Positions 328 through 64,000 of a stretch of 64,000 nt of DNA are shown one piece after another. The notes beneath the pieces were generated by a model. That model worked only from the letters and a program-made list of their open reading frames with translations. It was not told the DNA's origin and did not search any database. Origin of the DNA: Bilabrum cf. latius (Eukaryota); NCBI GenBank assembly GCA_965178125.1, contig OZ237740.1, forward strand, positions 868,001 to 932,000, given 5' to 3'. Every line of letters begins with the position of its first letter. The first letter of the stretch is position 1. Made by a program: the position numbers and the translations under genes.

Positions 328-2059
328 TCACATGCCAGCGCCAGAGGCCGCGCCTCCGCCCGCCTTGCTAGTAAGAGGTCGCACTTCGACCGTCTTACCG
401 CTCGTGATCTTGCCCCAGCCGATGAGCCTCCAATGCTTGTCAACTTGCCTGCTCAGGGCGATCTTGTCCCCGGGCTCTGCGCACACTGGCAGCGTTAATG
501 TCAGGGTGGCGATGTCACCCCTGACCTTGCCAACCCTGCCCGTGGTGCTCTTGGACCCGACATTGACCATGAGGCTCTCCTTCCTCTCCAGCTTGCGGAT
601 CTTCTGGTCCGTGCCCTCACCGGCGCGCACTCCCAGCAATCGTCGCAGCAGGTGGTACTGCACCTGAATTTCCTCGTAAACCATGGGCAGGTTGCCCCTG
701 TGCCCCAGGACGTGGCCCACAAGCCTATCTGCCCGGGTGAGGGTGGGGTCAATGCTGGTTCCCACTCCGATGAGGCCGCCCGGCACGGCGTACTGCAGCT
801 TGTTGGTCTCCGCCTTGAGATCCGTGACGGTGCTAAAAATCGGGGAGCACACGTTCTGCTTGGTGGCGGGGTCCCTTCGCACCAGCCCGGGGAGGATCTC
901 GATCTCGTCGCCCAGCTTGAGGACCCCCCTGAGGATGGACCCTCCCGCCACGCCTCCCTCCATGTCTTCGATCTTGTGCCCCGGTCTGTTCACGTCGAAG
1001 GATCGAATGACGATCATCCTGGGGCTGTTGGTGAAGTCTCTCACGGGGAGAGGAACCTTCCTCGCGAGGTACTCGCAGACCAGGTCCACGTTGTACCCTA
1101 GCTGGGCCGAGACGGGCAGGATGGGGGCGTTCTCGGCCACACCTCCGTCCAAAAAGGCCTTGATCTGCTGGTACTGCTCCTTGGCCTGGTCTCGGCTGAC
1201 GATATCGACCTTGTTCTGCAGCACGATGATCTTGTCCAGCTGCATGATCTCCACCGCTGCCAGGTGCTCTTGGGTCTGGGGCTATGGGCAAGGCTCGTTG
1301 GCAGCGATGAGCAGGATGGCGGCGTCCATCACGGCTGCTCCGTTCAGCATGGTTGCCATGAGAATGTCGTGGCCCGGGCAATCGACAAAGGAAATGTGCC
1401 GCACCAGCTGCATGGTTCTGCCCGTGCCGTCTTCCATGGGATACTCATCAGGGGAATTACTTCGACCAGAGGCGTAGACGTACGGCGGTGCGCTCGACCT
1501 GTAAATCTTCGCATTAGCGTAGCCAAGCTTGATAGTAATGTTCTGAGCCAACTCATCCTTGAACTTCACGGTCTTCACACCCGACAGAGCCTTCACAGTG
1601 GTGCTCTTGCCGTGCGCTACGTGACCTACGGTTCCGATGTTGATGGTTGCCTATCTCGAGATGATCTCGGGGGTCAGTGGTGTGAGAGATTCGACCTTGA
1701 GCCCCTCCAATGACTGCTCTTTCATGCCCTGCAGGAGATCAAATGGGAGGCAACAAGGGTGCGAGAAACAAGACTTGAACCGGTGCAGTTCTGCCAGAAC
1801 GAGGGACAGGGACAGTACTGGGAGCCTAGGCCAAAGCATAGCAACCCATGCCATTGCTTACCTCTCCAGTAGGCATCGGGGGCCCCTTTGCAGACCAAGG
1901 GTGAAGTTTCTCCGCGTCAAAGTCGGGTGCACGAACACCTCCTGCCCCACTGGCGGCCCCACTGCCCATCGACGACTTCAAAACGCTCTTTGGGGACTCA
2001 GAGCCTCCAACAGGACTAGATACACCACCTGCTGAGGCAGAGGTTGCAGGGTCAGACAT
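328..2059 (-). CDS. EIF2S3: Eukaryotic translation initiation factor 2 gamma subunit; exons 2059-1862 and 1728-328; two in-frame TAG (1651-1653, 1282-1284) read as Gln
   Basis: Motifs [60 protein letters not shown] and KHWRLIGWG. Phase-0 GT-AG intron at 1861-1729. Ends TGA. Confidence 0.96.
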
Positions 2060-2177
2060 GATTACCAGGAAAAGTACGAAATATGGTTTGGGGTTCCCTT
2101 CTCGCAATCTGATTTGAATTTATTTGTACCGAGCACTTTCGCAGGCAAGACTCCGCGTTCTCGTCGCATGCATTTGG

Positions 2178-3710: not shown

Positions 3711-4748
3711 ATGGACCCCCCGGCAAGCTCAGCAGAAAACAATGATACATCCGTAGGATAGGAAACCGATTCACCTTGGAGCTGCTGCATTTGCCTAGAG
3801 GAGGCAGTGGATCCAGTGGTAACAAAATGTGGCCACTTGTACTGGTGAGAGACGTGCCCATCAGCAACAAGCGCTCAGTATAAGGACAACAGATGCTCAC
3901 TGCCGCACATCATAACCATTTTAGATTGCAGTTGGCCTTGTCTCTACCGGTGGCTGGAACGTGGGCACGAGAGTTGTCCTGTGTGCCGAGCCCACGTGTC
4001 GAGGCAGAACGTCGTTCCAATTAGTGGTCGAGGACGTCTTGACCGGCAGCAGCCAGGGAGCGGTGCCAATTAGAATAAACCTGCTAACGATGCAGCCCCA
4101 ACAGCGGCGCCCCAGCCAGCCGGCCCTGGAGGAGCCCAGGCAAGCAGCGGTCCGTCCACGCAGCAGGCCTGTGGCCGACCAGGATCTCCAACCGCAGCGC
4201 CGGAGGGCGCTTCAGGAGCGGGCTCCAGCCCCTCAATGTCAAGCACTTAGGCCAGTTCCGGGGATCCCCGGCCGCCGGGACGCCAGGACTAGTAGGACTA
4301 GGACCAGGGCTAGTAGTAGGTCCCGCCTCGCCCTCGGGGGAGCTACGAGCCCGCGCCCCCTCCTCGTCCTGGGGGGGGTGGCCCCGCGGGATTTGGGAGC
4401 GGGCCGTTCGGTCTCGGTGGCGGGTTTGGGCCCTTTGGAGGCATGGGCGTGGGAAGGGGCGGGCATGGGGGCGGCTGGCAGTTTGGGGGTGGGTTTGGGT
4501 TATTTCCGAGCTTGTTCGGGATGCAGTTCTAGTTCGGGGGCGGGCCAGGTGGTGGGGTGGGTGGATTCCCCGGGCAATAGCCAGGGTAGGGGCAGGGACA
4601 AGGGCAGGGGCCGGGACAGGGCACCGCGGGCATGGGCATGGGAATGGAGGATGCAAGGGGTGGTGCTGCCCGGCAGCAGCAGCTCTTCCTGTCTAGAGTC
4701 GTCCTCACTCTCGGGCTGCTGCTGCTGCTCTACCTGTTGTATATTTGA
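3711..4748 (+). CDS. RNF5/RNF185/RMA1-like C3HC4 RING E3 ubiquitin ligase with C-terminal membrane anchor (intron 3845-3931)
   Basis: CCICLEEAVDPVVTKCGHLYC|WPCLYRWL..CPVCR..NVVPI, then VPPRPRG, GFGLFPSLFG and C-terminal FLSRVVLTLGLLLLLYLLYI-TGA. The frame is absent from the ORF track because of many in-frame TAG. Confidence 0.88.
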
Positions 4749-5199
4749 TTAAGTGAGCAGCTATGAATGATTCTTTGCAACTGATTCGGTGACGAGAGAA
4801 AAGCATGATGGATCCACCACCCATGTTCGGGCTAGCTGTTGTGTTTGCATCGTGCATGGATCGAGTTGCTGTAGCTACTGATTCCGGTGTTTAGCACATG
4901 AATGTTACTGATAAAATATGAAAGTATGTACGGCGAACAAGCACGCAAGACGCACGGACCTCGCCGGAACAGCCCCAATATCTGGGCAAGCCATTTCAAG
5001 GCGAGGTCTCTGCCACTGGCAGCGGCGACAAGAGCGTCAGGGAGCAAGTCCTCACGAGCCACCGCCCCCAGTAGCGCTTGAACTTGATGTAGAGGTCTGC
5101 CATAGAAAAAGATAGGAAGACTACAGTGACCTGAGATGGGAAGAAAGAGACTCTGTGTTACTCTGCAGGCGCGCCAGCTATAAGAGGTTGGCTGTCGGC

Positions 5200-5778
5200 T
5201 CGGCTACATTGGTGTGTTGCGTTCATCGGCACCTTGCGGTACACTCGCACTCGAAAGATGGTGATTGACAGTTTTCTTCATCGCCGACAGTTGCTCTGTT
5301 GCTGAGCAGAAAACGGTAGTAAAGTTCGCTCACCATGGCTTCAGCAGCTTGCATTGAAGTGTCTGCAGCAACTTTCCCGCAGGCCTACGCCACCCTCGCC
5401 TAAGCAAGTGTTTTCTGCAGCCACATGTCCGGATTGCTCTGGCCAGGCGTCTCGACGGCCTTCATGGCAGCAAGCGGAATCTGGAGGGAGCTGGCAGCCG
5501 CAGACTGCTTCAGAGCGCGCAAGTGGCCAGGCATTTCAGTCCTGCGGAGCACAGGCACGATGCAGGGATTTAAAACTATATATTTCCAACGAATAGCCAA
5601 GCTAGTCTTAGTTTTACACATAGAGAAGCACTTACAGTGACTTCGAAACCACACTCTGGGCGGCAGCTGTTCCTCCAGCCTCTTCCGGGAATGAAAGCGC
5701 AACTTCCATTCTTGCAAGGTCATCATGCAGCAGCTTTAGTCGCGAAGCTACCTATTCCTCTGGAGTTGCGGCGCTCAT
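5200..5778 (-). CDS. Small intron-containing gene, possibly Mediator subunit MED10-like; 3' end unresolved and the lower coordinate is approximate
   Basis: ATG at 5778, a GTAAGT intron, then an exon encoding LQIPLAAMKAVETPGQSNPDMWLQKTLA*ARVA*ACGK, which loosely resembles the MED10 IP..(G)xNP motif. Recognition is weak. Confidence 0.3.
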
Positions 5779-5914: not shown

Positions 5915-6782
5915 ATGGCCGCTGCTGGCACTGAGGCGCCCGAGATCAAGCTCTTTGGAAAGTGGTAAGTATAAAATCTAGTGCTTCTCTAGGATTTGCC
6001 TTATGTCGCCATCACCGGCCAGTACAGGAGGGTATGCTGTCCCGTGCAACTGTCTTCTTGCCATTGAATAGCATCTGCTGTTGATCCGAACGTTCAATTC
6101 CTCCTGAGTGCAGGTCTTATGAGGAAGTAAAGGTTAGCGATTCCTCCATCCGCGATTGGGTGGCAGCATCCACCAAGGATGCCAAGTACTTGCCCCACAC
6201 TGCCGGCCGGTACCAGGTCAAGCGCTTTCACAAGGCTCAGGTGAGTTTGCTCGGAACCGATCTTGCCACCGCATTGTTTTGTCCACACATGTTTTTGGGG
6301 CTGGTGCTGCCGCGACCTGCACTCGGATGATTGTCGATGCATGTCTCTGCACTGCAACGCAGGCTCCCATCGTGGAGCGCCTCGTGGCATGCCTGATGTT
6401 CCACGGCAGGAACACCGGAAAGAAGCTTATGGCTGTGCGCATCGTGCAGCACGCCTTCGAGATCATCCACCTGCTGACCGACGAGAACCCCATCCAGGTG
6501 CTGGTGAGCGCCGTGGAGAAGTCGGGCCCCCGTGAGGACTCCACTCGCGTGGGTAAGGGCGGTGCCGTGCGTCGCCAGGCCGTGGACGTGTCTCCTTTCC
6601 GCAGGGTGAACCAGGCCCTGTATTTGATTGCCAACGGTGCCCGGGAGGCGTCGTTCAGGACCATCAAGACCATCGCCGAGTGCCTGGCCGACGAGGTGAT
6701 CAACGCCTCCAAGGGCTCGTCGAACTCGTACGCCATCAAGAAGAAGGATGAGGTCGAGCGCGTGGCCAAGGTGAACCGCTGA
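5915..6782 (+). CDS. RPS5: 40S ribosomal protein S5 (uS7); exons 5915-5964, 6114-6240, 6363-6782
   Basis: [80 protein letters not shown]. Two canonical GT-AG introns. Confidence 0.97.
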
Positions 6783-7025: not shown

Positions 7026-8795
7026 ATGAGCGTCGACACGAAAGCTGCCGAGGATGCCTTCTTGATGACAGTAACAAAGATTCTGTTTTCGTACAGTAAG
7101 GCATGCTATTCACTACAGCCGCTCCTGTACGCGGGATGCCGCAGTGTGAAACCGCTAGCTGTTCGTCCGCTCTTTTCGCAGTCGAGCCGAATCAGTTGCG
7201 TATCCACAAGCCAACCCTGTTAGCTGCAGCCAAACTTGTTCGATGCTTTCTAGGTGAGGTGGATGTGCGTCTTGGCGTCACCTTGCGGCACCTCGATCGA
7301 TTCGTAGTTTTGAACAGTTGCTTCACTCCATTCTCCGGGCAATGTCCTCGGCGCAGACGCGGCAGTTGATGAGGCTGTAGACTTTTCACGGCACGCAAGG
7401 CGCAAAAACATCGCGTTGGACGATATACTGTTGCTAGCAAGGCGAAAACCGGAGCTTCTTCCTCTGCTACGAGCTGCACATGCCGGGAAGGCGGCGGAGA
7501 GACTATCGTAGAAAGCAGAACGCAGCGAGTCAAGGCATCAGGAAGAAGGTGCAGTAAGACATCCTGGTGCGGCTACCGCAGGCGCTGGAAGCGCTGGAAA
7601 GGGTCTGTAGGCGCTGAATAGCGGGGTCGCCAGCCGAACGAGCCAGCCACGTGAGCAGCAGGGCACGGCCATTGACATATCAAGCGGTTCAGAGTCCGAC
7701 GAAAGCAATGTAAATGAATCGCCGCACGCTGCATCCAGCGTGAACCGTCGGGGTTTGCCTCGGGCTCCATCGAGCGGAGCCAGTGCTGCTCTGCGAGCAC
7801 CTGTCCAAGCCGCCAAGGGAAGCCAAATCCACCAAGTAGGCGAGTCTCGCGCGGCAGGACGGGCCATGCAGATTCCCATTTCTAGCAGTAGCATCAGCCC
7901 CGTGCGTCAGGTCCACGGGGATGCGAGCGCTTCTGCCCGGCCCCGCCACGAAGCGCTTGCTCGCCTCGGGGGCGGAGCAGTTGCTCGCGAGGGCTAGGAT
8001 TCTGACATGTCGTGGAGCGGCGGGGATGCTGGAGACCTGGACGTGCTGCTGTCGGAGCCAGTGCCTAGGGGAGACGCCGGAGGATTGGGGGCAGGGGAAC
8101 GGGCGGGGGCTGGCTCGGCACCACTGGTGCCCGGCTCTGCCAGCAGGGGTCGCGTAATGGGTGGCAAAGGGAGGCACAGGCCCCTGGCAAAAGAGGGCAT
8201 TTCAGGCATACTGTCCGATGACTCCGGCTCCGACGGGGATGATGATGAGGATGCGGAGGATGAGGAGGAGGTTGGTGGTGGTGTCAGTGGCAGGGGTAGG
8301 GGTAGGGGCGGTGGAATGCAGAGGGATGGGTGGCAGCAGCAGAAAGGCAGGTCGAGTCTCCATGCTGGACGATCCACGGCAGGGGCAGACGAAGCCGATG
8401 CGGAGGAGGACGAAGACATGCTAGGTCTGTTAGCCATGATGGATGACGATGACGAGGATGCTGAAGGGGTGCAGGAGGGGGTCCTTGGGCGCAGTCTTGA
8501 GGTGCAGGACGAAGGGCAAGTGCCCGCTCGCATGCCGGGTTAGTCCGGACAGGCCCAGGACCCAAGGAATTAGGCTGGTTCCGGTCCAGGAGGGAAACAG
8601 CTGGAATGGGACCAGGAGGGTGACAATGAATTGGACGACATGGAAGCCCTCGCGCAAATGATGCGAGACGACAGCCCTGCGCCTCCCGAGGACAAAATAG
8701 GGCAGCAGCAGCAGCAGCAGCCTGGGGCCGGTGGGGACCCGATTGGGATCGACCTGGAGGCGATAGCGGAGGCGTTTGACAACGACGACTTGTGA
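7026..8795 (+). CDS. CENP-S/MHF1-type histone-fold protein with a long low-complexity acidic C-terminal extension (introns 7096-7181, 7254-7356)
   Basis: DEAVDFSRHARRKNIALDDILLLARRKPEL matches the CENP-S FARHAKR..I..EDV.LLARR motif. The frame continues through several TAG to TGA at 8793-8795. Confidence 0.72.
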
Positions 8796-30200: not shown

Positions 30201-30414
30201 AGGGACCCATGCTTCCATGTTGGCACCGAGGGAGGGACCCGTGGGAGGGCTGGGGTCCAACTTCCTGCGTGCCAGTGCCAGCGAGCTCATGTCTGTGGCT
30301 GGAAGCAGGAGCGACGGCATCGGAGCTGGGAGCGCGGATGGGGCGTCGGACCGGGAGGTGGAAGGGGGCTCCTCCTCACAGAGCGAGCCGGATGACACTT
30401 CGACTCCTGAATGA
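27241..30414 (+). CDS. Low-complexity Gly/Ser/Gln/His-rich protein (about 1050 aa), possibly a nuclear regulator
   Basis: ORFs 27550-29289, 29578-29838 and 29974-30414 share one frame joined only by TAG. Poly-Q, poly-H and (GA)n tracts, with a small helical region near 27935-28200. Start is either 27241 or 27277. Confidence 0.65.
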
Positions 30415-43500: not shown

Positions 43501-43620
43501 GCCCCTGCATCGAAGTCTCTCGTGGCCATGTCCGACCTCCTCGCATACACCGACACTGACAGTTGTAGTTGGGTAGTGTGTGCTTTGACTCAGACATATT
43601 ATATTCTCTCTCTGCCGCGC
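37535..43620 (-). mobile_element. Apparently full-length APE-type non-LTR retrotransposon (LINE family 1)
   Basis: One long ORF, a structured 3' UTR ending in GTATTTCTG, and TTCTCTCTCTGC-like sequence at both ends (about 37534-37555 and 43604-43615) as a candidate TSD. Confidence 0.88.
37773..43529 (-). CDS. LINE polyprotein, 1918 aa: N-terminal unknown region, APE endonuclease, reverse transcriptase and C-terminal domain; 12 in-frame TAG
   Basis: APE motifs IATKN, GTETQ, YNPP, VTGDFN, NTLDAI and SDHTGV. RT motifs KAVGPDGI, FRPI, D*AGFR, FFDIKGAFDS, GTP*GEILSP, GYADD and YLYLG. All ORF pieces are in one frame and the ORF ends TGA. Confidence 0.92.
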
Positions 43621-49200: not shown

Positions 49201-49331
49201 GCTGCGCGGACAGGGAACGCCATGCCATCATGTCCGCAGTTCTTGGACACCTCAATCACAGTAGTTGCAGTTGCCAGCTATAGGCTTGATAGCGCGACCG
49301 TGCAAGCCAGTACCACTTGAAGCAGATGCAT
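46296..49331 (-). CDS. Secreted glycoside-hydrolase-like protein (about 1011 aa, intronless) with a Cys-rich PAN/apple-like insert
   Basis: Signal peptide MHLLQVVLACTVALSSL*LATAT. Motifs RGFFPWHDFSTGPDYW, GGWALGP, KWAIPWLEGD..PQLWL and GMLSIHWRT. Four ORF pieces join via TAG. Ends TGA. Confidence 0.6.
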
Positions 49332-49413
49332 CGGTAGATTGTTGCAAGTATTCATTAAATACGCAGCTCAGATTCAAGAGCTAGACCAGCCCTATACATC
49401 TAGCTACTAGACT

Positions 49414-50681: not shown

Positions 50682-50684
50682 CAA

Positions 50685-50960: not shown

Positions 50961-53900
50961 CAAGACAGCATAACCATGACGGTGGACTTTCGTCCGCAAC
51001 CATACAGATGAAAGATTCACCACTTCCATCTGCAGGTCCCATCCACTCCGTCTTCTCACCATCCATACAGACTTGCTCGTGGCGCCATCCGCCTTACCAA
51101 TCTCGTCTGCAGTGCCTCGTTGACGTCATTCTACCTGTTCCAAAGCTTCCTTTCTCCGTCCCTCAACCTAACGGTTCCTCGGATCGCTCTTAGCCCAGTC
51201 CTGCACCATATCTCCTCCATCTACTTTCGCACGCCTCTCATCTTCCGCTCATCCGGTCGTCCTCTAGGTCTCCCCCAATTCGTCCATCTCTCTAGCCCAG
51301 TCACAAGAGTTGGCCATGCTGACAAGGATGTTCCTCGCCATCTCAACATCCGACACCGCGTCGGGTACCTACTCCATGCGTTCTCCATTGCGTCCAGGAA
51401 TCCACTCAGTTCCTTCCTTTGCACTTCCTCCTTGATCCTGTGCACTACCTACCTCATCCTTGGAATTGCTGCTCCCTTGGATGACTCAATCGGCTCCGAC
51501 TCCCAGGGTTTCTCTGTCCATGGGGATCGTCCATCCACCTCCTTCACCAGCAACTTCGTCGTCTGCTCCGTCGTGCCCTGGCCCGATTGCCATCGCTGAA
51601 CCAGCCTCCTCACCTGACGCTGACCTTCTGGTGTAAGCACCGTCGGCCGTGGCAATATCATGCACCGAGCCTTAAGTGCCAATCTCCCAAGGTTCCCCCG
51701 GTTCTGTACCCCCGCGAGCTTTGGGATAGCCCCTGGTCCGAACACTCCCAACTAGGACCCGTCCATCCACTCTCGTACCATAGCATAGGCAACTGCATCG
51801 TGTTTCTGCGCCCTGGGGATCGCCCTATTCCCTCGTAGTGTAGCGTACATGAGGTCCATGTACAGCTTCTTCGTACCCGAGTGACCCGACAGAGCCTTTT
51901 GTGCGATCCTAGTCATTTCAGCCTTCGCCAGTTGCCGTATAGCGTCCTTGCGGACCACTTCCGCCGTTGCTCCTCTAGCAAGAACCTCCTCGTCCCTGAC
52001 CGTCCATCGTCTCAGACACTCCCCCGCTGCATCGAGGGGTCCAGTCCCAGCCCCGCCATCTCGAACTTTGTTGAATACTGCTCTCTTGAAAGTGGCCCAG
52101 GGTGACGTGTTCCTAACCGGTTCTCGTACCACCCATACCGCCCGAAGCAGTTGCAGGTGAACCCTTGATGCGGCGTCCGCCGGTAGTACCTCAATGTCAC
52201 ATACCGACGTGCCTGGTTTCCTAGGTCCGATCACTTTCGGGTAGGCTTCCATCTTCCCAAACACTAGCGCTGACCTGACCTCCTGTAACAATCTATCCAT
52301 TGTTTCGAGTGCCTCAGCGTTCATGGTTATCCCGTCTCTCTCGATGGTCCTCTACCCCAGGACCTCCTCCCACCCGGTCACTGGCACTGCAGCCTCTGAT
52401 CCATACAGCATCCCCATCACCGTCGTCTGATAGAGTAGCTGTGCATGAAGCTTAATTCCCCAGTTGCACTCCACAGCTGCCCTGGTGACAAGTTGACCAT
52501 TCATTCGGGCCATGCTGACCCTACAGTGCACGTGTGGCATCATGTCCACCGCGTGATACTTCTCCTTCGGTGAGCTCCCCTATATCACCCTCACTGATAT
52601 TCGCAACCCGAGGTACTTGTACGCCCGTACGACTGGAACATCTCTGCTCTCTGCAGCTCCTGCCTGTTGCAACTCTACCGCATCCACCGAATGCCCCTTG
52701 CGTTCAAATTCTTCTGCCGCTCGCCCGAACGGCATAAACGCTGTCTTCTCCCCGATTCCGTTCACTCCTGTTTTTTTGATCCCTAGAGTCAACCCAGCCG
52801 CCCGCGCCAACTTCGACATTTTCGCGTACGCCCTCAAGGCTAATCGCCTGTTGCGGACCAGTATCACGTAGTCGTCTGCGTATGCTGCGTGCATAACGTA
52901 AATGGACTTATTCCGGTACCTGAGTCTGACTGGGGCTGCCCCTTCAGCCAGGAGTTCGCGCCTCATGGTCTCCAAAATGGGTGCTATGTACACCAAAAAC
53001 AGGGTGGGTGATAAGATTTCCCCCTGAGGTGCCCCGCCTTCTTTCACCACCGGGTTTGACAGTTCCCCTGTTCCAGGGTCACGTACTCTGACTCGCTGTC
53101 GTACCCTGTTCATCAAGTACCGGATCGATTGAGTTCCCCATCCCTGTTCCATCATCGTTTTCTCCAATATCTCCCACGAGCATGAGTCGTACGCTTGTTT
53201 GAAATCGAAGAAACACATGACTCCCCCAGCTCTGCCCTACTTGCTGATGCCTTGCATCATCGTCATGAAGGCTTGCTGGCAGTTACGTTCCCGTCGGAAT
53301 CCCATCTGGTCTCTCCCAAAGAGACCGTGTCGTTCGCAGTACCGCCTGACCTTGGTGTCCAGCATCGTACTGATCACCTTGCTGATCGTGGAGGTCCAAC
53401 AGACCGGCCTAAATCCCGACACCTCCATTGATCGCCGACCAGCCCCTGCCTTGTCCAGCGGCCGCATCATCGCCTCCTCTAGCTACGCCGGTTGGCATCC
53501 AGTGCACAGTATTGCATTCGATAGAGATCGTAAAACCTCGAGCAGACTGCCTTTGATGTCTGCGTGCGGATCGGCTGCACCCTCTCGCCGGATGAGCAAC
53601 ATGTCTTTCAGTTGATTCGAAGTGACCCCATCCAGACCCGTGGCTTTGTTGCGTCGTAAAGCTTTAATGGCATCTTCGACCTCCAGGTTGTCGTGACAGT
53701 ACAGATTCAGAACCCTGTTCGCTGTCGGCATATTCGGCCTAACTCTGTCGAAGTAGATGTCAGTTGCTGTCCTACGCTTCTTTGCCATCTCCCTAAGCCC
53801 TTCTGCGTGTCGATTGACGATCTCCGCTGTCGTTGATGTCATCGATCCGTTCGCCATCAGGATTGGCAGTAAGCCTTTTTCTCGCGTCGTTGTCACCCCC

Positions 53901-54170
53901 TCCCTGTTCCTCGCCGCCTGCTTGATCCTGTCCGTGATGACTCGCCATCTTGCCGCGGATGTCGTGGATTGAGCGTCAGTCCACAGTCGATCTCCATCGA
54001 GCCTCATGCCCTGCTCTGTCACTGCCATCCTGGTCTGCTACTGCAGCTCCGCTAGCTCGAGCAGTTGTTTGCAATGCGCAACTCGAATTGACGCGTCATC
54101 ATTCGATGGAACCTTCGACGCATCATGCAAAGCGATGAGCTGGGCACTCTGTTCATTGCACGCATTGCGA

Positions 54171-56423
54171 TTATCGTGCATCTTCAGAAACTTCCCTGGA
54201 CTTCCTGGTCTCCGGCGGCTCTTCTAGGTGCGTCGGCAGCCAATGGACGGCAGCAGCCACTCCGACCATCAAGATCGCGGCAAGGTTGAAGACCGCCGAG
54301 GCTCCCAGCGGCCACACGCGCCAGCTCTCATGGTCAGCTGCCTGGTTCAGCGAGAACGCCAGCACAGAGCCGCCCATGGCCGGACCTAAGGCCTTCCCCA
54401 CTGACGCTATCGTCATGGCGAGGCCATTCAGCTGTCCCCGCTGCTTCGACGGCACGGTGTTGTTGATCGTGATTGCCATCGAAATGAACTGCGCCAAACT
54501 GACGCCTGCACTCTGGAAGATCAGGAGCACGGCGGGCGCCCAGAAGACCGCCAGGCTGTAGGCGCTGAGGTCGGGTGCAGACGCCTGGCCATGGACCTGC
54601 GTGCAGTTTCCATGCTCTCCAAGGCTGTTGTCCACCATTGTTTGCGCGCCTACTGCGTCGCTGGGCATCATGATGCTTTCCGATCCATCGATGGTGCAGT
54701 TGGAGCCCTGAGGCTGCTGCTGCAATTCGTCGTGGTTGGCATGGGAGCGCGCAGCATCCCCCAGGAGAGCCACCAGGGGGATCGCAACGAAGCCCGGCAC
54801 CATGAGCCAGCTGGACCACTGCAACATGCTCATCTGACTGACGCACTTGCGGATGCACATGAAGACCGTCAGCTGGAACAAAACCATCAGTCCCCCGTTA
54901 AGCGCCATTACCACGCCCGTCTGCGCAGGTGTCATCCCGAGACCACGGTCTTCCACTGGAGTCTGGGCCCAAGTCGGAAGCGCCTCATCCACGGATATTT
55001 TGATCATGCTCGTTGCCGAGTAGATCAGAATGGCCGCCATGACCACTGGCTGGCAGACGAGGTAGCGATCGTCCTCCGATTCAGGTGACCTGAATGCGTC
55101 GGCACCCGCGCTCATTCTTTGCCCCCGATGCTCGCCCTACCCTATCAATCCACCGTGTTCCTCATCACTGTCGCTTTCGCCTACATCGATGGGAGCTACC
55201 GCAGGAGCGACGGGGGCGACTGCCCCGTCTGCCAGTGGGCTGTCTTGGATCACCTACGGCGCATTGGGGGCTGGTAGACTGCTGCTTTCACCTCCTTCTG
55301 ATGCAGCACTATTGACATCCTTTTTTCTGTCTTGAGAGAGCTCGCTTCTCTCAGCCATTTCAATTCCGAGTTCCAGCTCGTTCGCGACCCCGTCCCATCT
55401 TTGGCCCAGCGGATTCGAGAGGATATCGCGGAGCTCAGCGTCGTGGAGAACTTTCCTAGCTCGATTCACCAGTTCCGGATACCGAGCTGCAATGCGCTCG
55501 CCCTCGCCACTGAGTGTCATGCTACCCAGATCGTCGCTGTCCTCGTCCTCGTCCTCGTCCTCGTCCTGACCACTGCGGTCACCGTGACGGTGCATGTGGG
55601 CGGCGCCGAGCCTTGCGTACCGCGCTTCGTCTCCGCCCGGTCGTGGCCCTGCTGACGGACTCTCAGTTTCCACAGCTACAGCGCCGCTGGACTTCGCCTT
55701 GATATCATTCTCAGGAGCATGGCGCCTTGAGTGAGCACGACCTATGCAAACGCACGGGCCTAGGCAGCCATCCATGGACGCGTGCTCGACTGTCTCTGGT
55801 ACGATCGCAGCAACCGCCACAAACACGATCGCTGCTATCACACTGACCGCGAGGCACGGCAGAAGGATCGGCTCATCTTCGAACACTGTACCCTTGAACG
55901 TGCCCGGCATTGATTCGGCTGGATTGGCCAGCGCGCCTCCGATCGCCGGACCCAGAATCAGCCCGGCCGACCATGCCGCCGTCGAGAACGACATTGCGGC
56001 TGTCTGTTTTTCTGGGGGAACCAGCTCACTGACCATTGCCTTAATTGTACCCACTATGGCGTTTAGCAAGCCGGTTAGCAGCCGAATGGAGAACGCGACC
56101 GTGAAAGACCTAGTCATCGCAAATGCTGGCATGAGAACAGCAACTGCACCCGTTCCGAGAAGCAATGGGAATCGGCGGCCAGTTCTGTCGCTCAACATTC
56201 CGAGCGGAAGGCTGCTCAGAGTTCGACCGACCATAAAGGCAGCAGCAAGCGCACCGGCCCAGTAACCAATATCCCTGTGATCCTCTACCCCTGTTCGCAG
56301 TACAAATACAGGTAATATGGGAAATAGAGACGTGATTGCCACAGCATTGATGAGATTAGCGCCAGCAAGAGCTGCAAGCCAGTAGTACTCAAGCAACGTG
56401 AGCGATTCTTCACTTTTCCCCAT
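54171..56423 (-). CDS. MFS transporter, ZIFL1/DHA1-like, with a long central loop
   Basis: GMLSDRTGRR motif A, DIGYWAG, GLILGPAIGGALA and QRGQLNGLAMTIASVGKALGPAMGG. The halves join via TAG. Ends TAA at the LINE junction. Confidence 0.88.
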
Positions 56424-56687: not shown

Positions 56688-59600
56688 TCACGACACTACG
56701 CACTGCCCAGAGCCATCCCCCCCACCATGCCCTTGCCCAGGCCGGATCCTCCCGCCTTGCTCCAGCCTGAGAGCCTCACCCTCATCTCCTCTGGCTCGAG
56801 CCAGCCGCACGCGCAGCTCCTACCGTCTCCGAAGCTGCGCGATCGTCGCGTCGTACACGGAGACTGCGTCCACGCCGGCCTCGCGAGCGGGGTGCTCGCC
56901 GTCACGATAGCTGAAGTGCAGCTCCTCGGCCGCCCCCCCGAAGCGCAGCCTGTACTTCAAATTCGCCGCTAGGCGCACGGCGGGGCGCAGCCGCCTCGTA
57001 CCATCCGGAATCGAAACCCGCATGGTCTCCCAATGGCTGCTGACACCGAGCACGCCGGCGCCGAAGTCGTGCAATGCATAATGCACGGTGCCAGTCAGCG
57101 TGTCTACAACGGTCCTCACAAACAACCGCTTGTGATCCAGTTTCTTGTGAATCGTCTCGTAGTTGTAGCTTCGCGCGTTACCGAAGGACTCGTTTCCGTG
57201 CACCAGCTGGCCTCCCGAGTCGCAGTTGAGCGCCCAAGAGTGCGCGTCGATTCCAAACGAGTTGGCGGACTGGTTGGGGACAGGGAAGAACTCGGCATCA
57301 ACCCAAGCCAGATGCAGCTGGAGGGCTTGTTGGCCGCCAGTTGGCTGCACCTCCACTTCGAATGCAATCACGGGACGCAGCTGCCTCAGCATCTTTGCCG
57401 TCTCAGTTGCGGGCGAGTCGTCCTTGGCCTACGGGAAGAATGCCTTGAATTCCCGCAAAGTGGGGATGCCCACGGGGAACCCGGGAATTCTCGCGGTCAG
57501 GTGCACGAAGGAACCCGGGGATAGCAGCCTGACGGGGTGGCCGTTGGATTCCGAGGCGAGACCGGCCACGGGATCTCTGAACATGCCAGACTTCTCCTTC
57601 TGAAGAATCGCCTTCTTCAGCCTGTCAACGTACTCCTCGGCAGTCTCTGTCGAGACCGCCAATGGTATCGCTGGCCCGCCACTCGGAGCGCCATTGCTCT
57701 CGAGCACTTGCAGCGGCAGCCGTAGGGGCATCTCTTCCGGAGTTTGAGGCTCGCCATCCGTTGCGAATGCAGTGGACGGCCCACGCATGAGGGCAGGTGG
57801 TGCCGCGAGGGGGTCTGACGGAGAACCTCCTCCGCCAGCGCCCGCCCCCGAGGCTGGCCCTGACTCATCATCGTCCACCTGCATTGCCCTCGCAGCTAGC
57901 GCCAGGTCGGCCCCCGCGGGTATCGCCGCAGCAAACGCGTCCTCCCCCTCTGCCAGGTCAGGCGACTCGCCTGCTTCCGCCTGCTTCTGCTGGGCCTCGG
58001 CCAGAGCGCGCTGCAGCACCGGTGATCTCTCGAGAACCCACGAGCCTAGCGACCTGTACCCACCCTTGCCAGGCGGCGGGCGATGCTGGAAGGGTTTCTA
58101 GCCCAGGTTCAGTCGCACCGCGTGACCCAATCCGATGGTGGCAGCAAACACCAGGCCCCCGGTTGCCTTCACGTCACGGTGTGCTACGCCCCACGGCGCC
58201 TCCCACGATCCGTTCAGGGAGTAAGACACTGTTCCTTCAAACATGTCAATGGCAATCCCAATCGTGTTCCCTGGCCTGGCCCAATCGGTTCCAAACTGCT
58301 CGCCAAACGGCTCGGGCTCGCCGTCGCTTCCAAGCTTGCAGGGTCGGTCCACAAAATCTTCATCGGTAAATTCTGGAGACACCGCACTCACCGAGAGATC
58401 TTCTCCGTCAGCGGATCCACTCGCAGCCCCGCCACTCGCACCACCACTCGCACCATGAGAGGACAGTGAGGCAGCACCGGTAGCCTCACCGCCAGACGGC
58501 GCCACACCATGCATCAAAACACCAGGGAACGCTACATTCCTCTCGTCAATGGACACCACTTGCTCTGCGTCAGCCTGGATAGCGGTGCCCATTGCAACGT
58601 TCGGCATTGGCATACCGTGAAAGCTAAAGACGTCGTCAAGCATGGCAGTTGGAGCGGGAGTCGCTTCCTCGCGGGCAGTGTCGGCGTGCTTGCCCTCATT
58701 GGCCTTGGCAAATGCTTCAATCTTGGCCAGCCGCTTACTCATGCCTGTTGATTCGTACCATTGCACCAGATCGGAGCAGAACGGTTCAACTCTAGCCCTG
58801 CATATCGCTGCTAAGCTGTAGAACGCTGCGTTGTCAGGGCGTCTATGCGGCTTCGTTAAAAGCCATTCCGCTGCCAGGGAGGCATTAAAAGTTGGCATGC
58901 TTTGATTACTTAGCCGAGCACCGAGTCCGAGCCTCGATCCGTACATTGGCTGGGATCTGAGGGCGCACAGCATAGTAGCTTGCCGCTGGCCGTAGTTCTA
59001 CGAAAACAAATTTCCCGTCGTCCCCTAAGCGACAGATTCCATGGGAACGAAGCCAACCTGGATGTCCGCTTCCAGCTGTGCCTTCGTGAGCGTGTACGAC
59101 GCCTTGTCCCCAGAGACTGCAACCTTCCACTGCTCCAGGCTGGCCATCTTGCTGTGCGCTGCAGCGGCATGCACCTCACGAAGCTGCGCAGGGGTCAGCC
59201 CGCTCACCTTGTTGAAGTCTAGGACCTCGAGCTCGAAGTACCAGCGGCCTCGTGTGATGCCTACGGTTGGCACGTGCACCACTGCAGAAAAGAGATTGTT
59301 CCTTCTGATCGCTTCTCCCTATAGTATGCTGGATACGTCCCCGCGGAACATGGTGCCGTCCGGCTTGATCTCGACGTCATTGGAGCCAGAAAGTCCCTGC
59401 ACTGGAACCGGGCGCCCCGCGCGCAGACCCGCTCGCTGCACGAGCTGCACCTCGCGCTGCAGGTCAACCAGCCGCTACACGCTGCCTGCGGCCGAGATGG
59501 ACGGACGGTACACGAAGCTGCGCTCCCCCAGATTCACGCCAGCCACGCCCCTGCAGTCCATTGACACCCCAACATTGACGCCCCCAGGCGTAGCCATCAG

Positions 59601-62600
59601 CCGATCCGCGCAGCTGTTCGCAGTGGAAGCTGGCGCAACTCCCACGAACTCTGGCGCATCCTCCAGGACAGGGATTCGGCTATACTCTGCAGACGTTGTG
59701 TCTTGGGACGATGCAGCGGCGGACGCGCCAGCCCCTGCGTCTGCTTGAGGTCCCACAGAGATGACCGGGTGCCCATTCAACGAGAACACGATCCTGCGGT
59801 GATCGGTGTCGATGCACATGCCAACCATATCGGAGATGCGAAGGGGCCTACAAGCAGGTGCACCACAGCGTTGAGCATTGGCCCAAATGAAGCCATCGTC
59901 GCCGAGTGCAATCGTATCAGGATGGGAGCCGATGCCGACGGTAGACCGCACGCTACCCTTGAAGCTCGTGACGCAGATGCCGATCAACACTGCCGGAGGC
60001 TGCAGGACCGCCTCCAGATCCAGATCCAGATTTGGATCCGCAATCATGTCTGTTCCAGCTTTCTTGGCCTCGACTTTCTTTGCAGCCTCGATACGCCTGC
60101 GAAGGCCCGCAATCATGGAGCCCTTGGCATTTGGCACTGGTCGATCCTCCACCACCAGATCGTCCTCAGGGCGGGCTGGCACAGTGGCATCTGGTAGTGC
60201 ACCAAAGAGGTCTTCTGAAGTACGAAGCATCTAAAACTCGCACGCAAACACGCCTGTACCGCTTTGCAAGGCAATAGCTCTCGGCTGCACGGTGACTACA
60301 CTCGACCGGACCGTTGGGGCAGACAGCACACCATCGGCACGAGTGATGGCAGCGCCACCCGAGGTCACCACCAAGTCGCCAATGTCCTCCAAACTGCGCG
60401 CCTCCTGGTGCAGGGGCTCTGCATCCGCGTACGTTTGCTATCGCAGCAGCCCAGGCGCTCCCAGCCGGTCACGACTGCGGCTGCCATCCTCCGACTCCTC
60501 CTTGGATTCGGCAGCTCTCGCCCCCTGCTGCGACGCAAGGAGGTTGTCAAGCCGTTTCTTTTGCAGCGACTCAAGCGCACGTCTGGCCTGATCCTCTGCT
60601 CGACCGTAAGCAGCTGCTCGGCTCTTGAGAGCGCCAGCTAGCACGCCTAGGTAACGCTCCACTCGCCGCGCTGCCCTGTCGGCCTCCTTGTCCGCTTTGG
60701 CAGAGAGCTCAACGAGTGTTTGCGCCCTCGTCGGTGGTTCCAGCGCCTGCTGGAACATATGCTTGCTCACCAGCCCTGCGCCATCCGTCGCAGACGAATC
60801 GATGAGCGCAGCCAAATCGCTGGCCGCTGCATCCACACCGATGGTGGGCAGAGCAGCAATGAGCTCGGACGGCGAGGCGTGCTCGCCAGTAGTGCCCCAG
60901 CGGATCTTAGACAGACCGCGAGGGACGGATCCGTGCATACGGATCAGTGCAGTGCGGATTTGCGCTGCAATCGCACGCAGCTTTAGGAATCTGAGCTGCA
61001 ACCGGCTGGTCATCACGGTAGCCAGCGGGGTTTGATCCCACCCAGACGCCTCTCTTCTTCGCTTGAGCACCATGTTGAAATACAGCTTGGATCGTTCCTG
61101 CGTGGGACTTGATCCCAGCGCAGCCAGAAGATGGGCCAGCTCGCTGTCGGTGAAGACAGTTTCCAGGTTGAAGAATCGCGCGGCCTGCAGCGGGATATTC
61201 GCTGCATCGATCCGATCCGCAGTGACGAGAGCGTCTGCTGCCCCGATGGATGACCCGGCCGCCCCGGCTCCACTCGCCGCGCCGCTCCCAGCCCCACCCA
61301 CCGAAAGGACCACGTCAGTTGCGCTGCTAGATTTGCCATATTCTTCTCCCTGCACAAGCTGCTGAGCTGTGCTTGGGGCAGCAAGAGATTCGTCCAGGTA
61401 CAGCTAATCCAACGCCACACCGTCCGTATCTACGAGCTCAATGGAGGCCTTCGCAACTCGCTCGTCATGAGAAGGCCACACTCGTCCCAACAATATATCC
61501 CTGGCATCCGTCACGTACGGAGACCTGGCGTGCAGTGCCCGCCTTAGCGCCGCGACCTCCTCAAGATTCACTGTGGAAACGCCACCAGCAAATCCAGGGC
61601 CGCGCACTGCATGCTTCGGCGGGTGGGGCTAGCCCCTCGGCGGCGGAACCCACTTGAGCACTACCATAACGTTCTTTAGTGGCCACATTGGCTCCGTGTA
61701 CGCTTCGCTTGTCGGCGGCGTATGGTTGTAAGAAAGCAGGAAGTTGTGCGGCATGTCAAGATCTGGGGCATCCTCCCACAGGCGGACAGCCTAGTACTCA
61801 GCAAGGCTCATGCCCTCCACGAGCTTGTGCCGATGCAAAGGAGACACGTCGAAAGCAGCAGCAGCCGCGACTCTGGCTGCATCGGACAAACCAGCAATGG
61901 AGCGATCAGACATGTGCGCCTCATCGAAATCAACGGGCAGCGTGAGATCGGCCAATGCCCATTGCTTCGGGAAACGACATGCGTCTCGATCGCGTGGTGC
62001 AGTGACAAGCTCTTGGAGCACTTCTTGCTCCTTCTCTTGCTGTTTTTCCTGCTCACGTTCCTGGGTGACTTCCTGCTGACTCACTAGCTCTCCGTCAAAC
62101 CCAACGATCCGAGCTGCTGCGTATTCGACAGCAGCGTCTCCTCCCAGCACATCGTCACCATCTGCAGTCCCTTCATCATCGGCGGCAGTTTTGCTCTCGG
62201 CTGCACCAGATGAAGCATGCTGCTGCTCCTACAACTCTCGCTGCCTCTCCCTGGCAGCTCTTATTCTGCGCTGCAGGCTGCTATCTCGGGAACTTTGAGC
62301 GTCCGCTACGGCCAGGAGAATAACGTCCCGAGCCGCCGTTCTCGCGTCCCTGAGCGCCTCAGACGCATATCCTCGCATGGTTGTATCATCCCCAACAATA
62401 TCGCGCCACTCATGGAGCATTCTCTCTAGCTTCTGCGCGAATCCGATCGGAGGCTCGATAACGGCCGGCACATCGAACTCGAGGGGGTCCAAGAACGCCT
62501 CCACGCACCGCGAGAGTAGTTTCTGCCGCTTGTCCACCCCAATGAGAACGTCAGATCGCTTCAGGTCGTAGCGTGTCAGCTTCTTCTAGGGCATACTATG

Positions 62601-64000
62601 GGCAAGCTTCTTCCTCGCGAGTCTACTTCTGGATCCACCAGACCTGAAGCTGCTGGTGGAGCCCCCAGACCCAACGCCAGTCAAGTAGGTGTCATCTGGC
62701 GACTGAGAACCGAATTTTTCTTGGAGCAACTCTTTCGTCCCAGTGTCTGCATGGTACTCGGTGAGAGCGCGCGAATCAGCGAACCTAGTGACAAGTGGCA
62801 TCAGCCTAGCACCCTGGAACATCCTTTCGTACGACAACAGGAAGGGGGTAGGCGGCCGGAGCCCGGGCGTGTCGATCAGTGGGAAGAAGGCCTGCATGTG
62901 GGTGTGCCAGCCCAGGAACCCACTGGCTATGTTGCCAAAAGATCGATCGCTCGAGCCGTCGGAACCAGCTGCACTAGCAACGGGCACTGCCGCAGCGCCC
63001 CCAGAAGCTGCACCTGCACCGCTGCTCGGTCCTGATTCATGCGACAGTATCTCCAAGATTGCCTAGGCCAGCATCGCCCTGGACGGTGGGTGGAGCACCG
63101 TTGCACCCGAAGCACCCTCCTCAGAGTCGCCGTAGCCAGAGCTTTGCGCCCCCTGGCGGAACGCGCGCAGCATCCTGTCTCGCAGCGCCGTCAGCTATTC
63201 GCTAGACTCAGCATCTCCACGAATAAGCGTTCGCAGTGTTCTATCCCTCACGCGATTACCCACTTCGCGTTGCATGGCGTCATTGTTGAATATAATGCCA
63301 TCGTCTCCGCTGAGCGTGAGTGGCTCGCCTGAACACAAACCGGGCGGTCCGCTCTCCCTTGCCTTCCGGCCGTCATGCGCGGCCAGGTACAGCTGGCGCT
63401 CGACCAAGAAGGGTGGCAGCGGCTCCGACCGCAGCGTCTTGAGCGCTTTCTGCCTCCAAATGTTGGTAAGCCGTAGCTAGCACAGGGACAGATGCTGCAT
63501 GTGCTCCGAGCGAATGGACTTGGTGACCAGCCAGGCCACCACATCGCGCGGCAGGAAGCCGGTGTCCGACACCTCTCGCACCCTAGACAGCACCTCTGGA
63601 ATTACAGCAACGCTGAGTTTTTGTCCTTGCCCCAGACCGCGCATCCGATAGCAGCCCTGTGCCATGTCACGGAGAGTCATGTCATTGGACAAAGTGACCA
63701 CGGCCCGGGCATCGAGGCCCTGCTTGATGTCTTGGCCAGTGGTGTGGGCGTGGTCAAATACCACAAATCGCGCGTGCGGCGCAAGGCCGCAGTCCTGGAG
63801 CGGAATGGTGCGACCGCTCGCTCGCATTACCGCCATCTGTCTACCAGCGTTGTCGATGAACACGCAGCCCTTGAACCGGGGACGCAGCTTGCTCAGAATG
63901 AAACGAGCTGCCTGTTCGTTCGACATTCCAGTGATCAGAGCCCCCGTGTCGATCACCGCATTGTACGGCGGATCTGCTTGCGCGATTGATGTGAGCAGGC
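56688..64000 (-). CDS. C-terminal part (over 2400 aa, 5'-partial) of a giant DUF3638/DUF3645-family-like protein with SPRY domains and a terminal CaaX box
   Basis: IDTGALITGMSN, FDHAHTTGQDIKQ..AVVTL..RDMAQGCYRMRGLGQGQ and QEREQEKQQEKEQE. SPRY motifs GRWYFELEV, DMVGMCID and GNTIGIAID. Twelve ORF pieces are in one frame, each ending in TAG. Final residues GQCVVS-TGA. Confidence 0.8.

What the first reader, a model, noticed from the sequence alone, without database searches (positions are those of the whole stretch)
328..64000. Nuclear genetic code with UAG reassigned to glutamine
Seen: nearly every gene is broken by in-frame TAG but continues in the same frame. In eIF2-gamma, TAG sits at ISR*ATINIG (1651) and NEPCP*PQT (1282). 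In the LINE RT it sits at D*AGFR (40086) and GTP*GEILSP (39804). An 11-kb cyclase frame has 19 TAG and no TAA/TGA. Established: those positions are invariant Gln (SRQATINIG, CPQPQT, QxGFR, PQG). UAG-only reassignment (NCBI table 15 pattern) is known from very few eukaryotes, such as the fornicate Iotanema and some ciliates. Inference: this GC-rich genome with roughly 90-150 nt introns does not look like a ciliate, so it may be an independent, undescribed reassignment.
Basis: partly seen in the sequence, partly recalled or inferred. Interest (0 to 1): 0.97.

Follow-up and report, generated by a model that had tools for sequence, protein, structure and literature searches.

The report
UAG read as glutamine, nuclear genome
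This GC-rich eukaryotic DNA uses the normal stop codon UAG as a glutamine codon in almost every gene, a rare change of the genetic code that here appears in an organism outside the groups where it is known.

Summary
Reading TAG as sense raises the longest open frames from 604 aa to 3775, 2436 and 1938 aa. Reading TAA as sense changes nothing.

- **Codon counts:** 13 coding stretches (15,230 codons) hold 105 in-frame TAG.
- **Amino acid:** TAG falls on near-invariant Gln at five columns. These are eIF2-gamma (117/120 and 120/120), LINE RT (138/141 and 142/143) and the SPRY NLGQ motif.
- **Not editing or error:** spliced, RNA-derived contigs in two runs from two studies carry 11 of these TAGs unchanged.
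- **TAA is not sense:** about 44 would be expected if it tracked CAA:CAG, and none is seen. Allowing TAA merges no large frame.
- **Stops:** TGA ends 15 of 16 genes.

The most likely mechanism is a tRNA-Gln(CUA) plus an eRF1 that no longer reads UAG. This is inferred: neither gene is in the window and no genome is held.

The taxon is unresolved. It is not Amoeboaphelidium protococcarum (40.5% GC, UAR=Gln) and does not look like a ciliate. eIF2-gamma sits on a long branch among unnamed sequences near ochrophyte stramenopiles.

This is a known code variant in a probably new lineage. I could not establish whether it is already published.

The parts
328..2067 (-). eIF2-gamma gene. Main exon runs to 1727, the intron is 1728-1860, and the upstream exon is 1861 to about 2067. 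In-frame TAG at 1651-1653 and 1282-1284. Stop is TGA at 328-330.
   Evidence: Translation. Spliced contigs of runs X5 and X6 cover 313-1727 plus 1861-2067 with 0 differences. Homologues have Q at both columns, 117/120 and 120/120.
3711..4748 (+). RNF5-like RING-finger gene with intron 3844-3930. It has 12 in-frame TAG, several inside Q/G-rich low-complexity repeats. Stop is TGA.
   Evidence: Spliced translation. Nine of the 12 TAG lie inside spliced contigs of X5 and X6 that show 0 differences. The RNF5 name is recalled from the look of the RING motif, not tested.
5052..5778 (-). Small gene of unknown family with introns 5097-5333 and 5541-5634. It has 3 in-frame TAG. Stop is TGA.
   Evidence: Joints in X5 and X6. 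Spliced translation.
5915..6782 (+). Ribosomal protein uS7 (RPS5) gene with introns 5964-6112 and 6238-6359. It has no TAG. Stop is TGA at the usual C-terminus. It has the highest contig depth in the RNA-like runs.
   Evidence: Joints and depth. Translation. The family name comes from the sequence and recall, with no Pfam call.
7314..8795 (+). Frame with a CENP-S-like start and an acidic tail. It has 5 TAG. Stop is TGA.
   Evidence: Pfam CENP-S, E = 2.9e-05, below the gathering score. Codons.
14200..25527 (+). Giant adenylate/guanylate cyclase frame of 3775 codons with 24 TAG. Stop is TGA.
   Evidence: Pfam Guanylate_cyc, E = 6.4e-74, three stretches. TAG positions.
27223..30414 (+). Low-complexity frame of 1063 codons with 11 TAG. 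Stop is TGA.
   Evidence: (no Pfam family).
30592..32538 (+). Frame of 648 codons with 3 TAG. Stop is TGA. No family was found.
32943..35849 (+). PINK1-like protein kinase frame with 11 TAG. Stop is TGA.
   Evidence: Pfam Pkinase, E = 1.4e-08. PDB PINK1 chains, E about 1e-05. Codons.
37773..43589 (-). LINE retrotransposon frame of 1938 codons with 12 TAG. TAG at 40086-40088 and 39804-39806 sit on the two near-invariant Gln of the RT domain.
   Evidence: Pfam RVT_1. The paralogue has CAG at both sites. Homologues have Q in 138/141 and 142/143.
43720..45102 (+). RWD / Prp3_C-domain gene with 1 TAG after the likely start codon. Stop is TGA.
   Evidence: Pfam. Codons.
46296..49367 (-). Frame of 1023 codons with 7 TAG. 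Stop is TGA. No family was found.
51056..54268 (-). Second LINE RT frame of 1070 codons with 10 TAG. It is 34% identical to the first copy.
   Evidence: Pfam RVT_1. Pairwise alignment.
54171..56423 (-). MFS transporter gene with 2 TAG. It is the only gene that ends in TAA, and a TGA follows 6 codons later.
   Evidence: Pfam MFS_1, E = 4e-26..
56688..63998 (-). C-terminal 2436 codons of a giant DUF3638/DUF3645-type protein with a SPRY domain. It has 17 TAG. The TAG at 58098-58100 sits on the Q of the SPRY NLGQ motif. Stop is TGA.
   Evidence: Pfam SPRY. Homologues carry PF12340/PF12359. RyR SPRY alignments. Coordinates.

Best explanation
The nuclear translation system of this organism decodes UAG as glutamine throughout the genome. 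UGA is the working stop codon. UAA is not used as a sense codon and is at most a rare stop.

The likely mechanism is inferred, not shown. A tRNA-Gln with anticodon CUA would read UAG but not UAA; it is one anticodon mutation away from tRNA-Gln(CUG). Alongside it, the release factor eRF1 would have lost recognition of UAG. After the switch, TAG codons accumulated by C-to-T changes at CAG Gln codons. They now make up about 14% of Gln codons, are commoner in poorly conserved segments, and are absent from the most highly expressed gene (uS7).
For: **Shown**
1. TAG as sense opens frames of 3775, 2436 and 1938 aa, against a maximum of 604 aa under the standard code.
2. There are 105 in-frame TAG in 15,230 codons of 13 coding stretches with domain or expression support.
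3. Five of five conserved columns hit by a TAG are Gln in homologues. eIF2-gamma gives 117/120 and 120/120. LINE RT gives 138/141 and 142/143, and the second LINE copy in the window has CAG at both. SPRY NLGQ gives 5/5 printed alignments.
4. X5 and X6 come from two studies. Their contigs lack the GT..AG introns 1728-1860 and 3844-3930 and show 0 differences over 11 TAG codons. X1 shows no such joints.
5. X1 contigs match 1-9032 and 12795-20000 with 0 differences.
6. TAA: about 44 would be expected if TAA:TAG followed CAA:CAG (188:453), giving P(0) of about 1.5e-16, and none is seen. Allowing TAA merges none of the eight largest frames.
7. 15 of 16 gene-like frames end in TGA.

**Inferred**
- A relative about 94% identical in DNA probably has CAR at codon 192. 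Its predicted protein P0003 starts at the first start codon after TAG-69 and reads Q at 192.
- The tRNA(CUA) logic is as argued in PMC5304391 and PMC11687900 (passages read).
Against: - No tRNA gene and no Rfam family lies in the window. No whole genome is held. So tRNA-Gln(CUA) and eRF1 were never seen.
- There is no peptide evidence.
- The in-frame zero for TAA is partly built in, because frames were defined as TAA/TGA-free. The real evidence is their length and the lack of merging.
- UAA as a stop rests on one gene, and a TGA follows 6 codons later. UAA could be unassigned or still ambiguous.
- Most TAG lie in poorly conserved segments where the amino acid cannot be checked.
- The runs are Logan contigs, not raw reads, and their RNA label is the tool's guess. 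Only the spliced form argues for RNA.
- Whether some genes end in TAG (a dual-use codon) was not testable.
Confidence: 0.87

Rival explanations
1. The organism uses the common UAR=Gln code (NCBI table 6), in which both TAA and TAG mean Gln. TAA is simply too rare to appear in this GC-rich window.
For: - TAA is the rarest stop triplet in the window: 223 against 538 TAG and 888 TGA on the plus strand.
- The only gene ending in TAA has a TGA 6 codons later, so reading through it would do no harm.
- UAA and UAG nearly always share one meaning (PMC11687900, passages).
Against: - A-ending codons are not avoided. The ratios are CAA:CAG 188:453, GAA:GAG 229:565 and AAA:AAG 108:323.
- With 105 TAG, about 44 TAA would be expected. 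None is seen, with P of about 1.5e-16 under proportional use.
- Allowing TAA leaves the eight largest frames unchanged.
Confidence: 0.05
2. UAG is ambiguous rather than cleanly reassigned. It would be read through by near-cognate tRNA-Gln(CUG), or be context-dependent (sense inside genes, stop near 3' ends), with no dedicated tRNA(CUA).
For: - Context-dependent stop/sense codes are known in Condylostoma, karyorelict ciliates and Blastocrithidia (search listings and abstracts; passage of PMC5304391).
- No tRNA or eRF1 could be examined.
- The most highly expressed gene, uS7, avoids TAG.
Against: - TAG makes up 14% of Gln codons, reaches 24 in a single frame, and sits at essential invariant Gln of eIF2-gamma. 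Inefficient readthrough would be very costly at that level.
- None of the 16 gene-like frames needs TAG as its stop.
Confidence: 0.06
3. This is an artefact or a non-translational cause: sequencing or assembly error, pseudogenes, or U-to-C RNA editing that restores CAG.
For: None was found.
Against: - Only TAG interrupts the frames, never TGA, which is 2.4 times commoner off frame.
- Independent contigs of four runs agree.
- Spliced contigs keep TAG at 11 codons.
- The genes include essential, expressed ones (eIF2-gamma).
Confidence: 0.01
4. UAG encodes an amino acid other than Gln, such as Glu, Leu, Ser, Tyr, Lys or Trp, as in other lineages with changed codes.
For: UAG=Leu, Ser and Glu variants exist (PMC11687900 and PMC5304391, passages).
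Against: - All five conserved columns are Gln at 97.5-100%.
- The paralogue has CAG at the RT sites.
- TAG alternates with CAG inside GQ repeat units of the RING gene.
Confidence: 0.01

Closest known systems
Iotanema spirale (Fornicata): UAG=Gln, with UAA and UGA as stops (PMC5304391, passages read)
   Same: Only UAG is reassigned, and to glutamine. The predicted mechanism is the same: tRNA-Gln(CUA) plus an altered eRF1.
   Different: Iotanema is a fornicate known from a transcriptome, and it keeps UAA as its dominant stop. Here TGA ends 15 of 16 genes. The window also carries a PINK1-like kinase. Its eIF2-gamma is 63-68% identical to slowly evolving eukaryotes and sits near stramenopile sequences. 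No fornicate sequence was available for a direct comparison.
Ciliates with UAG-only = Gln: Protocruzia tuzeti and two phyllopharyngean lineages (T. petrani, H. sinica) (PMC11687900, passages read)
   Same: The codon and the amino acid are the same, and UAA is retained as non-sense. The reassigned codon is used in most genes.
   Different: In those ciliates UAA is the main stop, and GC across the class is 27.4-53.6%. The window has GC of 0.54-0.64, two long LINE frames, GT..AG introns of 87-237 nt and TGA as the main stop.
UAR=Gln codes (NCBI table 6): Amoeboaphelidium protococcarum, hexamitin diplomonads, oxymonads, ulvophyte algae, many ciliates
   Same: A stop codon is reassigned to glutamine in a nuclear genome. 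A. protococcarum is an algal parasite, and relatives of this window turn up in algae and protist metagenome runs.
   Different: TAA is also Gln in those codes, whereas here there is no TAA against 105 TAG. A. protococcarum has 40.5% GC (PMC10608142, Table 1). Its annotated proteins are cited under GenBank accessions, yet no named hit exceeds 68% identity.
Genetic code 15 in crAss-like phages (PMC9523058, abstract only)
   Same: TAG is read as Gln.
   Different: That is a viral recoding inside bacteria. This is a eukaryotic nuclear genome with spliced genes.

Membership tests
UAG-only = Gln nuclear code (NCBI table 15 pattern) | In-frame UAG in conserved genes at columns where homologues have Gln | tested here: met
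   Five of five conserved columns: 117/120 and 120/120, 138/141 and 142/143, and 5/5 printed SPRY alignments.
UAG-only = Gln nuclear code (NCBI table 15 pattern) | UAG is present in the mature mRNA, so editing or DNA error is excluded | tested here: met
   Spliced contigs of X5 and X6 show 0 differences over 11 TAG codons. These are contigs, not raw reads.
UAG-only = Gln nuclear code (NCBI table 15 pattern) | UAA is not a sense codon | tested here: met
   No TAA against 105 TAG in 15,230 codons, where about 44 would be expected. Allowing TAA merges no large frame.
UAG-only = Gln nuclear code (NCBI table 15 pattern) | UAA still functions as a stop | tested here: inconclusive
   One of 16 genes ends in TAA, and a TGA follows 6 codons later.
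UAG-only = Gln nuclear code (NCBI table 15 pattern) | A tRNA-Gln with anticodon CUA is present | not testable with these tools
   No tRNA in the window, no Rfam hit, and no genome held.
UAG-only = Gln nuclear code (NCBI table 15 pattern) | eRF1 domain 1 is altered (GTS, NIKS, YxCxxxF motifs) | not testable with these tools
   eRF1 is not in the window and no genome is held.
UAR = Gln code (NCBI table 6) | In-frame TAA at Gln columns alongside TAG | tested here: not met
   No in-frame TAA.
Ciliate macronuclear genome | Low to moderate GC, no transposons, and UAA as the main stop where it is retained | tested here: not met
   GC is 0.54-0.64. There are two LINE frames. TGA ends 15 of 16 genes. 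The phyllopharyngean GC range is 27.4-53.6%. No ciliate sequence was placed in the tree.
Amoeboaphelidium protococcarum | About 40% GC, UAR=Gln, and proteins cited under GenBank accessions | tested here: not met
   The window has about 59% GC against 40.5%. No named hit exceeds 68% identity. There is no TAA sense codon.
Stramenopiles (placement of the organism) | Marker proteins branch inside named stramenopiles | tested here: inconclusive
   In the FastTree of 120 rows, a 33-row set (support 99) has only ochrophytes among its named members. Under LG+C20 the window sits on a 1.42-long branch among unnamed rows and is not exclusively with named stramenopiles. The best named hit of the DUF3638 protein is an oomycete.

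The most novel reading that the evidence does not exclude
This is an independent and so far undescribed origin of the UAG-only = Gln nuclear code. It would sit in a GC-rich, transposon-bearing, aerobic protist lineage with no named close relative, possibly a stramenopile or another SAR member, where no nuclear code change turned up in my searches. UGA would be essentially the only stop, so UAA would be nearly unused rather than the dominant stop seen in all other UAG-only lineages.
Probability: 0.45. Interest if true: 0.88.

Novelty: new member of a known kind. Interest (0 to 1): 0.8.

Why it matters
Nuclear codes in which UAG and UAA differ in meaning are very rare. The passages I read name Iotanema, Protocruzia, two phyllopharyngean ciliate lineages, a rhizarian (UAG=Leu) and Scotinosphaera (UAG=Ser).

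A further case in a GC-rich non-ciliate would have several consequences.
- It would add an independent data point for how UAG can be uncoupled from UAA.
- It would test whether codon capture needs AT pressure, because here TGA rather than TAA is the main stop.
- It would offer an organism that may be in culture, since DNA and spliced-RNA contigs come from several runs. That would allow study of tRNA-Gln(CUA), GlnRS recognition and eRF1 specificity.

There is also a practical point. Any standard-code annotation of this genome will truncate almost every protein. The public predicted proteins P0003 and P0006 appear to be such truncations.

Tried and rejected
**Searches that could not answer the question**
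- Whole-genome search for tRNA and eRF1: no genome is held.
- ARAGORN and Rfam on the window: no hits.
- Earlier findings of this scan: nothing by place, words or sequence.
- Metagenome scan with eIF2-gamma: 80 loci at 58-66% identity, without the 94% relative, so no DNA-level TAG-to-CAR comparison was possible.
- The look-up of sequencing runs: no holder is on record as RNA. The RNA nature of X5 and X6 rests on their spliced contigs only.
- Read laying: its table of other letters was cut, with 1136 rows not shown. The relative's letters at individual TAG codons could not be read.

**Taxon placement**
- eIF2-gamma is 57-68% identical to homologues from very different eukaryotes, apart from two unnamed close relatives (P0003, P0006). 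The named ones include Clastostelium, Heterosigma, choanoflagellates, diplonemids, Rhodelphis and animals.
- The MFS search gave only 5 weak hits and the DUF3638 search gave 7.
- The careful IQ-TREE run did not finish in time, so the quick tree was used.

**Hypotheses dropped**
- Amoeboaphelidium was rejected on GC content, on the code and on the lack of close named hits.
- A green-algal origin is not favoured. Elliptochloris and Mesotaenium group elsewhere with support 99-100.

**Other**
- A Pfam call failed through my own frame slip and was not needed again.
- Nine literature searches (and 49 as a follow-up read) found no description of a GC-rich non-ciliate with UAG=Gln. Supplements are closed, so the codon tables of PMC5304391 and PMC11687900 were not seen.
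Full report
**What is in the sequence**

The window is GC-rich, 0.54-0.64 in 4-kb bins. Under the standard code the longest open frame is 604 aa.

| Codon read as sense | Longest frames (aa) | Source |
|---|---|---|
| None (standard code) | 604 | |
| TAG | 3775, 2436, 1938, 1070, 1063, 1023, 968, 941 | |
| TAA | no change | |
| TGA | none above 704 | |

TGA as sense raises the summed length of medium frames about as much as TAG does (25,962 aa against 25,278 aa). That is expected for the commonest stop triplet in such DNA.

The long TAG-containing frames are real genes:
- eIF2-gamma
- a three-domain adenylate/guanylate cyclase
- a PINK1-like kinase
- an MFS transporter
- an RWD/Prp3_C protein
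- a DUF3638/DUF3645-type giant with a SPRY domain
- two LINE reverse transcriptases

The cyclase frame has 24 TAG, 19 of them after the first 70 codons. Fifteen of 16 gene-like frames contain TAG. The exception is ribosomal protein uS7.

**Which amino acid**

Every TAG that falls on a conserved column falls on glutamine.

| Gene and site | Homologues with Q | Source |
|---|---|---|
| eIF2-gamma, residue 69 | 117 of 120 (2 gaps, 1 E) | |
| eIF2-gamma, residue 192 | 120 of 120 | |
| LINE RT, TAG at 40086-40088 | 138 of 141 aligned | |
| LINE RT, TAG at 39804-39806 | 142 of 143 aligned | |
| SPRY, TAG at 58098-58100 (NLGQ motif) | 5 of 5 printed ryanodine-receptor alignments | |

The RT homologues are the 150 best of the hits from a search of 1.84 billion representatives. 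The second, 34%-identical LINE copy in the window has CAG at both RT sites. The other four TAG in that RT fragment lie in variable or thinly aligned columns and say nothing either way. In the RING-finger gene, TAG alternates with CAG inside GQ repeat units.

**Not error and not editing**

Logan contigs of four runs were laid on 1-20000.
- X1 matches 1-9032 and 12795-20000 with 0 differences.
- X5 and X6 carry different organism and study codes. Each holds a contig lying on about 300-1727 and 1861-2060, with the 133-nt intron removed. The intron ends are CT..AC on the plus strand, which is GT..AG for this minus-strand gene. These contigs show 0 differences, so both eIF2-gamma TAGs stand in spliced sequence.
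- Each of the same two runs holds a contig of the RING gene with intron 3844-3930 removed and 0 differences. It covers 9 of that gene's 12 TAG.
- X1 shows none of these joints.

Two caveats apply. These are assembled contigs rather than raw reads, and the tool labels X6 'probably DNA'. The spliced form is the only evidence that the sequence comes from RNA.

**TAA and the stops**

In 13 coding stretches (15,230 codons) the counts are as follows.

| Codon | In frame |
|---|---|
| TAG | 105 |
| TAA | 0 |
| CAG | 453 |
| CAA | 188 |

If TAA were a Gln codon used in the CAA:CAG ratio, about 44 would be expected, and P(0) is about 1.5e-16. The zero is partly built in, because the frames were defined as free of TAA. 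However, allowing TAA merges none of the eight largest frames. The one TAA just upstream of the eIF2-gamma frame is the GTAAGC 5' splice site of its intron.

Fifteen of 16 genes end in TGA. These include uS7 and eIF2-gamma, which run to what I recall as the family's usual C-terminus. The MFS gene ends in TAA, but a TGA follows 6 codons later. So UAA is shown not to be a sense codon, while its role as a stop remains open.

**A close relative**

Run X9 (labelled algae metagenome) holds a collinear relative. It shows 263 differences over window 293-4809, on a 12,935-nt contig.

The public predicted protein P0003 is 100% identical in amino acids. Its longest contig is also 12,935 nt. It begins at residue 88, which in the window is the first ATG, GTG or TTG codon after TAG-69, and it reads Q at residue 192.

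The simplest reading is that the relative keeps TAG at codon 69 and has CAG or CAA at codon 192, a synonymous TAG-to-CAR difference. This is an inference. The letters themselves were not shown.

**How it most likely works**

The mechanism is inferred, following the argument in PMC5304391 and PMC11687900 (passages read).
- A CUA anticodon pairs with UAG but not UAA, which explains why only UAG changed.
- That anticodon is one mutation away from tRNA-Gln(CUG).
- eRF1 must have lost recognition of UAG while keeping UGA.
- TAG then spread by C-to-T changes at CAG codons. It now makes up 14% of Gln codons, mostly in weakly constrained segments, with none in the most highly expressed gene.

Neither the tRNA nor eRF1 could be examined.

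**Which organism**

The organism is unresolved.
- eIF2-gamma is 57-68% identical to homologues from very different eukaryotes. Its only close relatives are two unnamed sequences, P0003 and P0006.
- In a FastTree of 120 of the 121 rows (P0003 left out as a near-duplicate), the window sits in a 33-row set with support 99. Its only named members are ochrophyte stramenopiles: Fibrocapsa, Heterosigma, Chattonella and Epipyxis. The tool warns of long branches meeting.
- I also built a tree of 41 rows under LG+C20, leaving out the long row P0010. The careful search did not finish, so the quick tree was used. There the window pair has a branch of 1.42 and joins unnamed rows. A 10-row unnamed set has support 99, and named stramenopiles are neighbours rather than an exclusive sister.
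- The best named hit of the DUF3638 protein is the oomycete Thraustotheca, at 48% identity over 19% of the query.
- No alveolate, ciliate or fornicate sequence was among the named rows, so these groups are not excluded by the tree.

Ciliates are made unlikely by the GC content, the LINEs, the intron sizes and the dominance of TGA. Phyllopharyngean GC is 27.4-53.6% and UAA is their main stop. Amoeboaphelidium protococcarum is excluded: it has 40.5% GC and UAR=Gln, and its proteins are cited under GenBank accessions, yet no close named hit appears.

**Comparison and novelty**

The code itself is known. UAG-only = Gln occurs in Iotanema spirale, Protocruzia tuzeti and two phyllopharyngean lineages.

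What differs here is the genomic setting: GC-rich, transposon-bearing, and ending genes in TGA. The lineage probably differs too. Nine literature searches found no matching description (with follow-up reading). The library lacks most subscription journals and supplements are closed.

I therefore file it as a new member of a known kind. I put the chance that it is an independent and undescribed origin at about 0.45.

Noticed in passing
window 11284-12396 (+), tandem array 11779-12383: This frame encodes an array of seven 29-residue C2H2 zinc fingers (87-nt period, 91% matches). Contig depth here is 30-100 times that of the flanks in all four runs, so the unit is highly repeated in the genome.
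   Followed up: partly
window 8796-13753: The roughly 94% relative in run X9 joins 8795 directly to 13754, skipping 4958 nt. The repeat-rich, zinc-finger segment is therefore absent at this locus in the relative.
   Followed up: no
window 9446-10962: Contigs in X1 (depth 708) and X6 join 9445 to 10963 with 15 other letters between. This suggests that other copies of this repeat lack a 1.5-kb insert, as in a nested mobile element.
   Followed up: no
window 37773-43589 (-) and 51056-54268 (-): There are two LINE-type frames, only 34% identical to each other. Both are uninterrupted once TAG is read as Gln, with 12 and 10 TAG. The elements have therefore evolved under the changed code and may still be active.
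   Followed up: partly
window 4248-4319 and 4530-4589 (+): The RING-finger gene has runs of TAG (qq, qqq) inside Q/D- and G/Q-rich low-complexity tracts. This is the densest use of the codon in the window.
   Followed up: partly
window 5915-6782 (+): uS7 has the highest contig depth in the RNA-like runs and is the only gene without TAG. This hints that highly expressed genes avoid the reassigned codon.
   Followed up: no
window 54153-54173 (-): The MFS gene's TAA is followed in frame by five codons and then a TGA. This is a tandem-stop arrangement that leaves the status of UAA open.
   Followed up: partly
window 14460-20000 (+): Run X6 holds an 11,585-nt contig that matches the cyclase from 14460 onward with 0 differences. 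Its first 399 nt lie elsewhere. The length fits a full cyclase mRNA with a spliced 5' part, but the contig could also be DNA.
   Followed up: no
proteins P0003 and P0006 (public predictions for close relatives): Both are N-terminally truncated eIF2-gamma predictions, starting at residues 88 and 167. For P0003 this is as expected if standard-code gene callers stop at in-frame TAG. Public protein sets for this lineage are probably fragmented throughout.
   Followed up: partly
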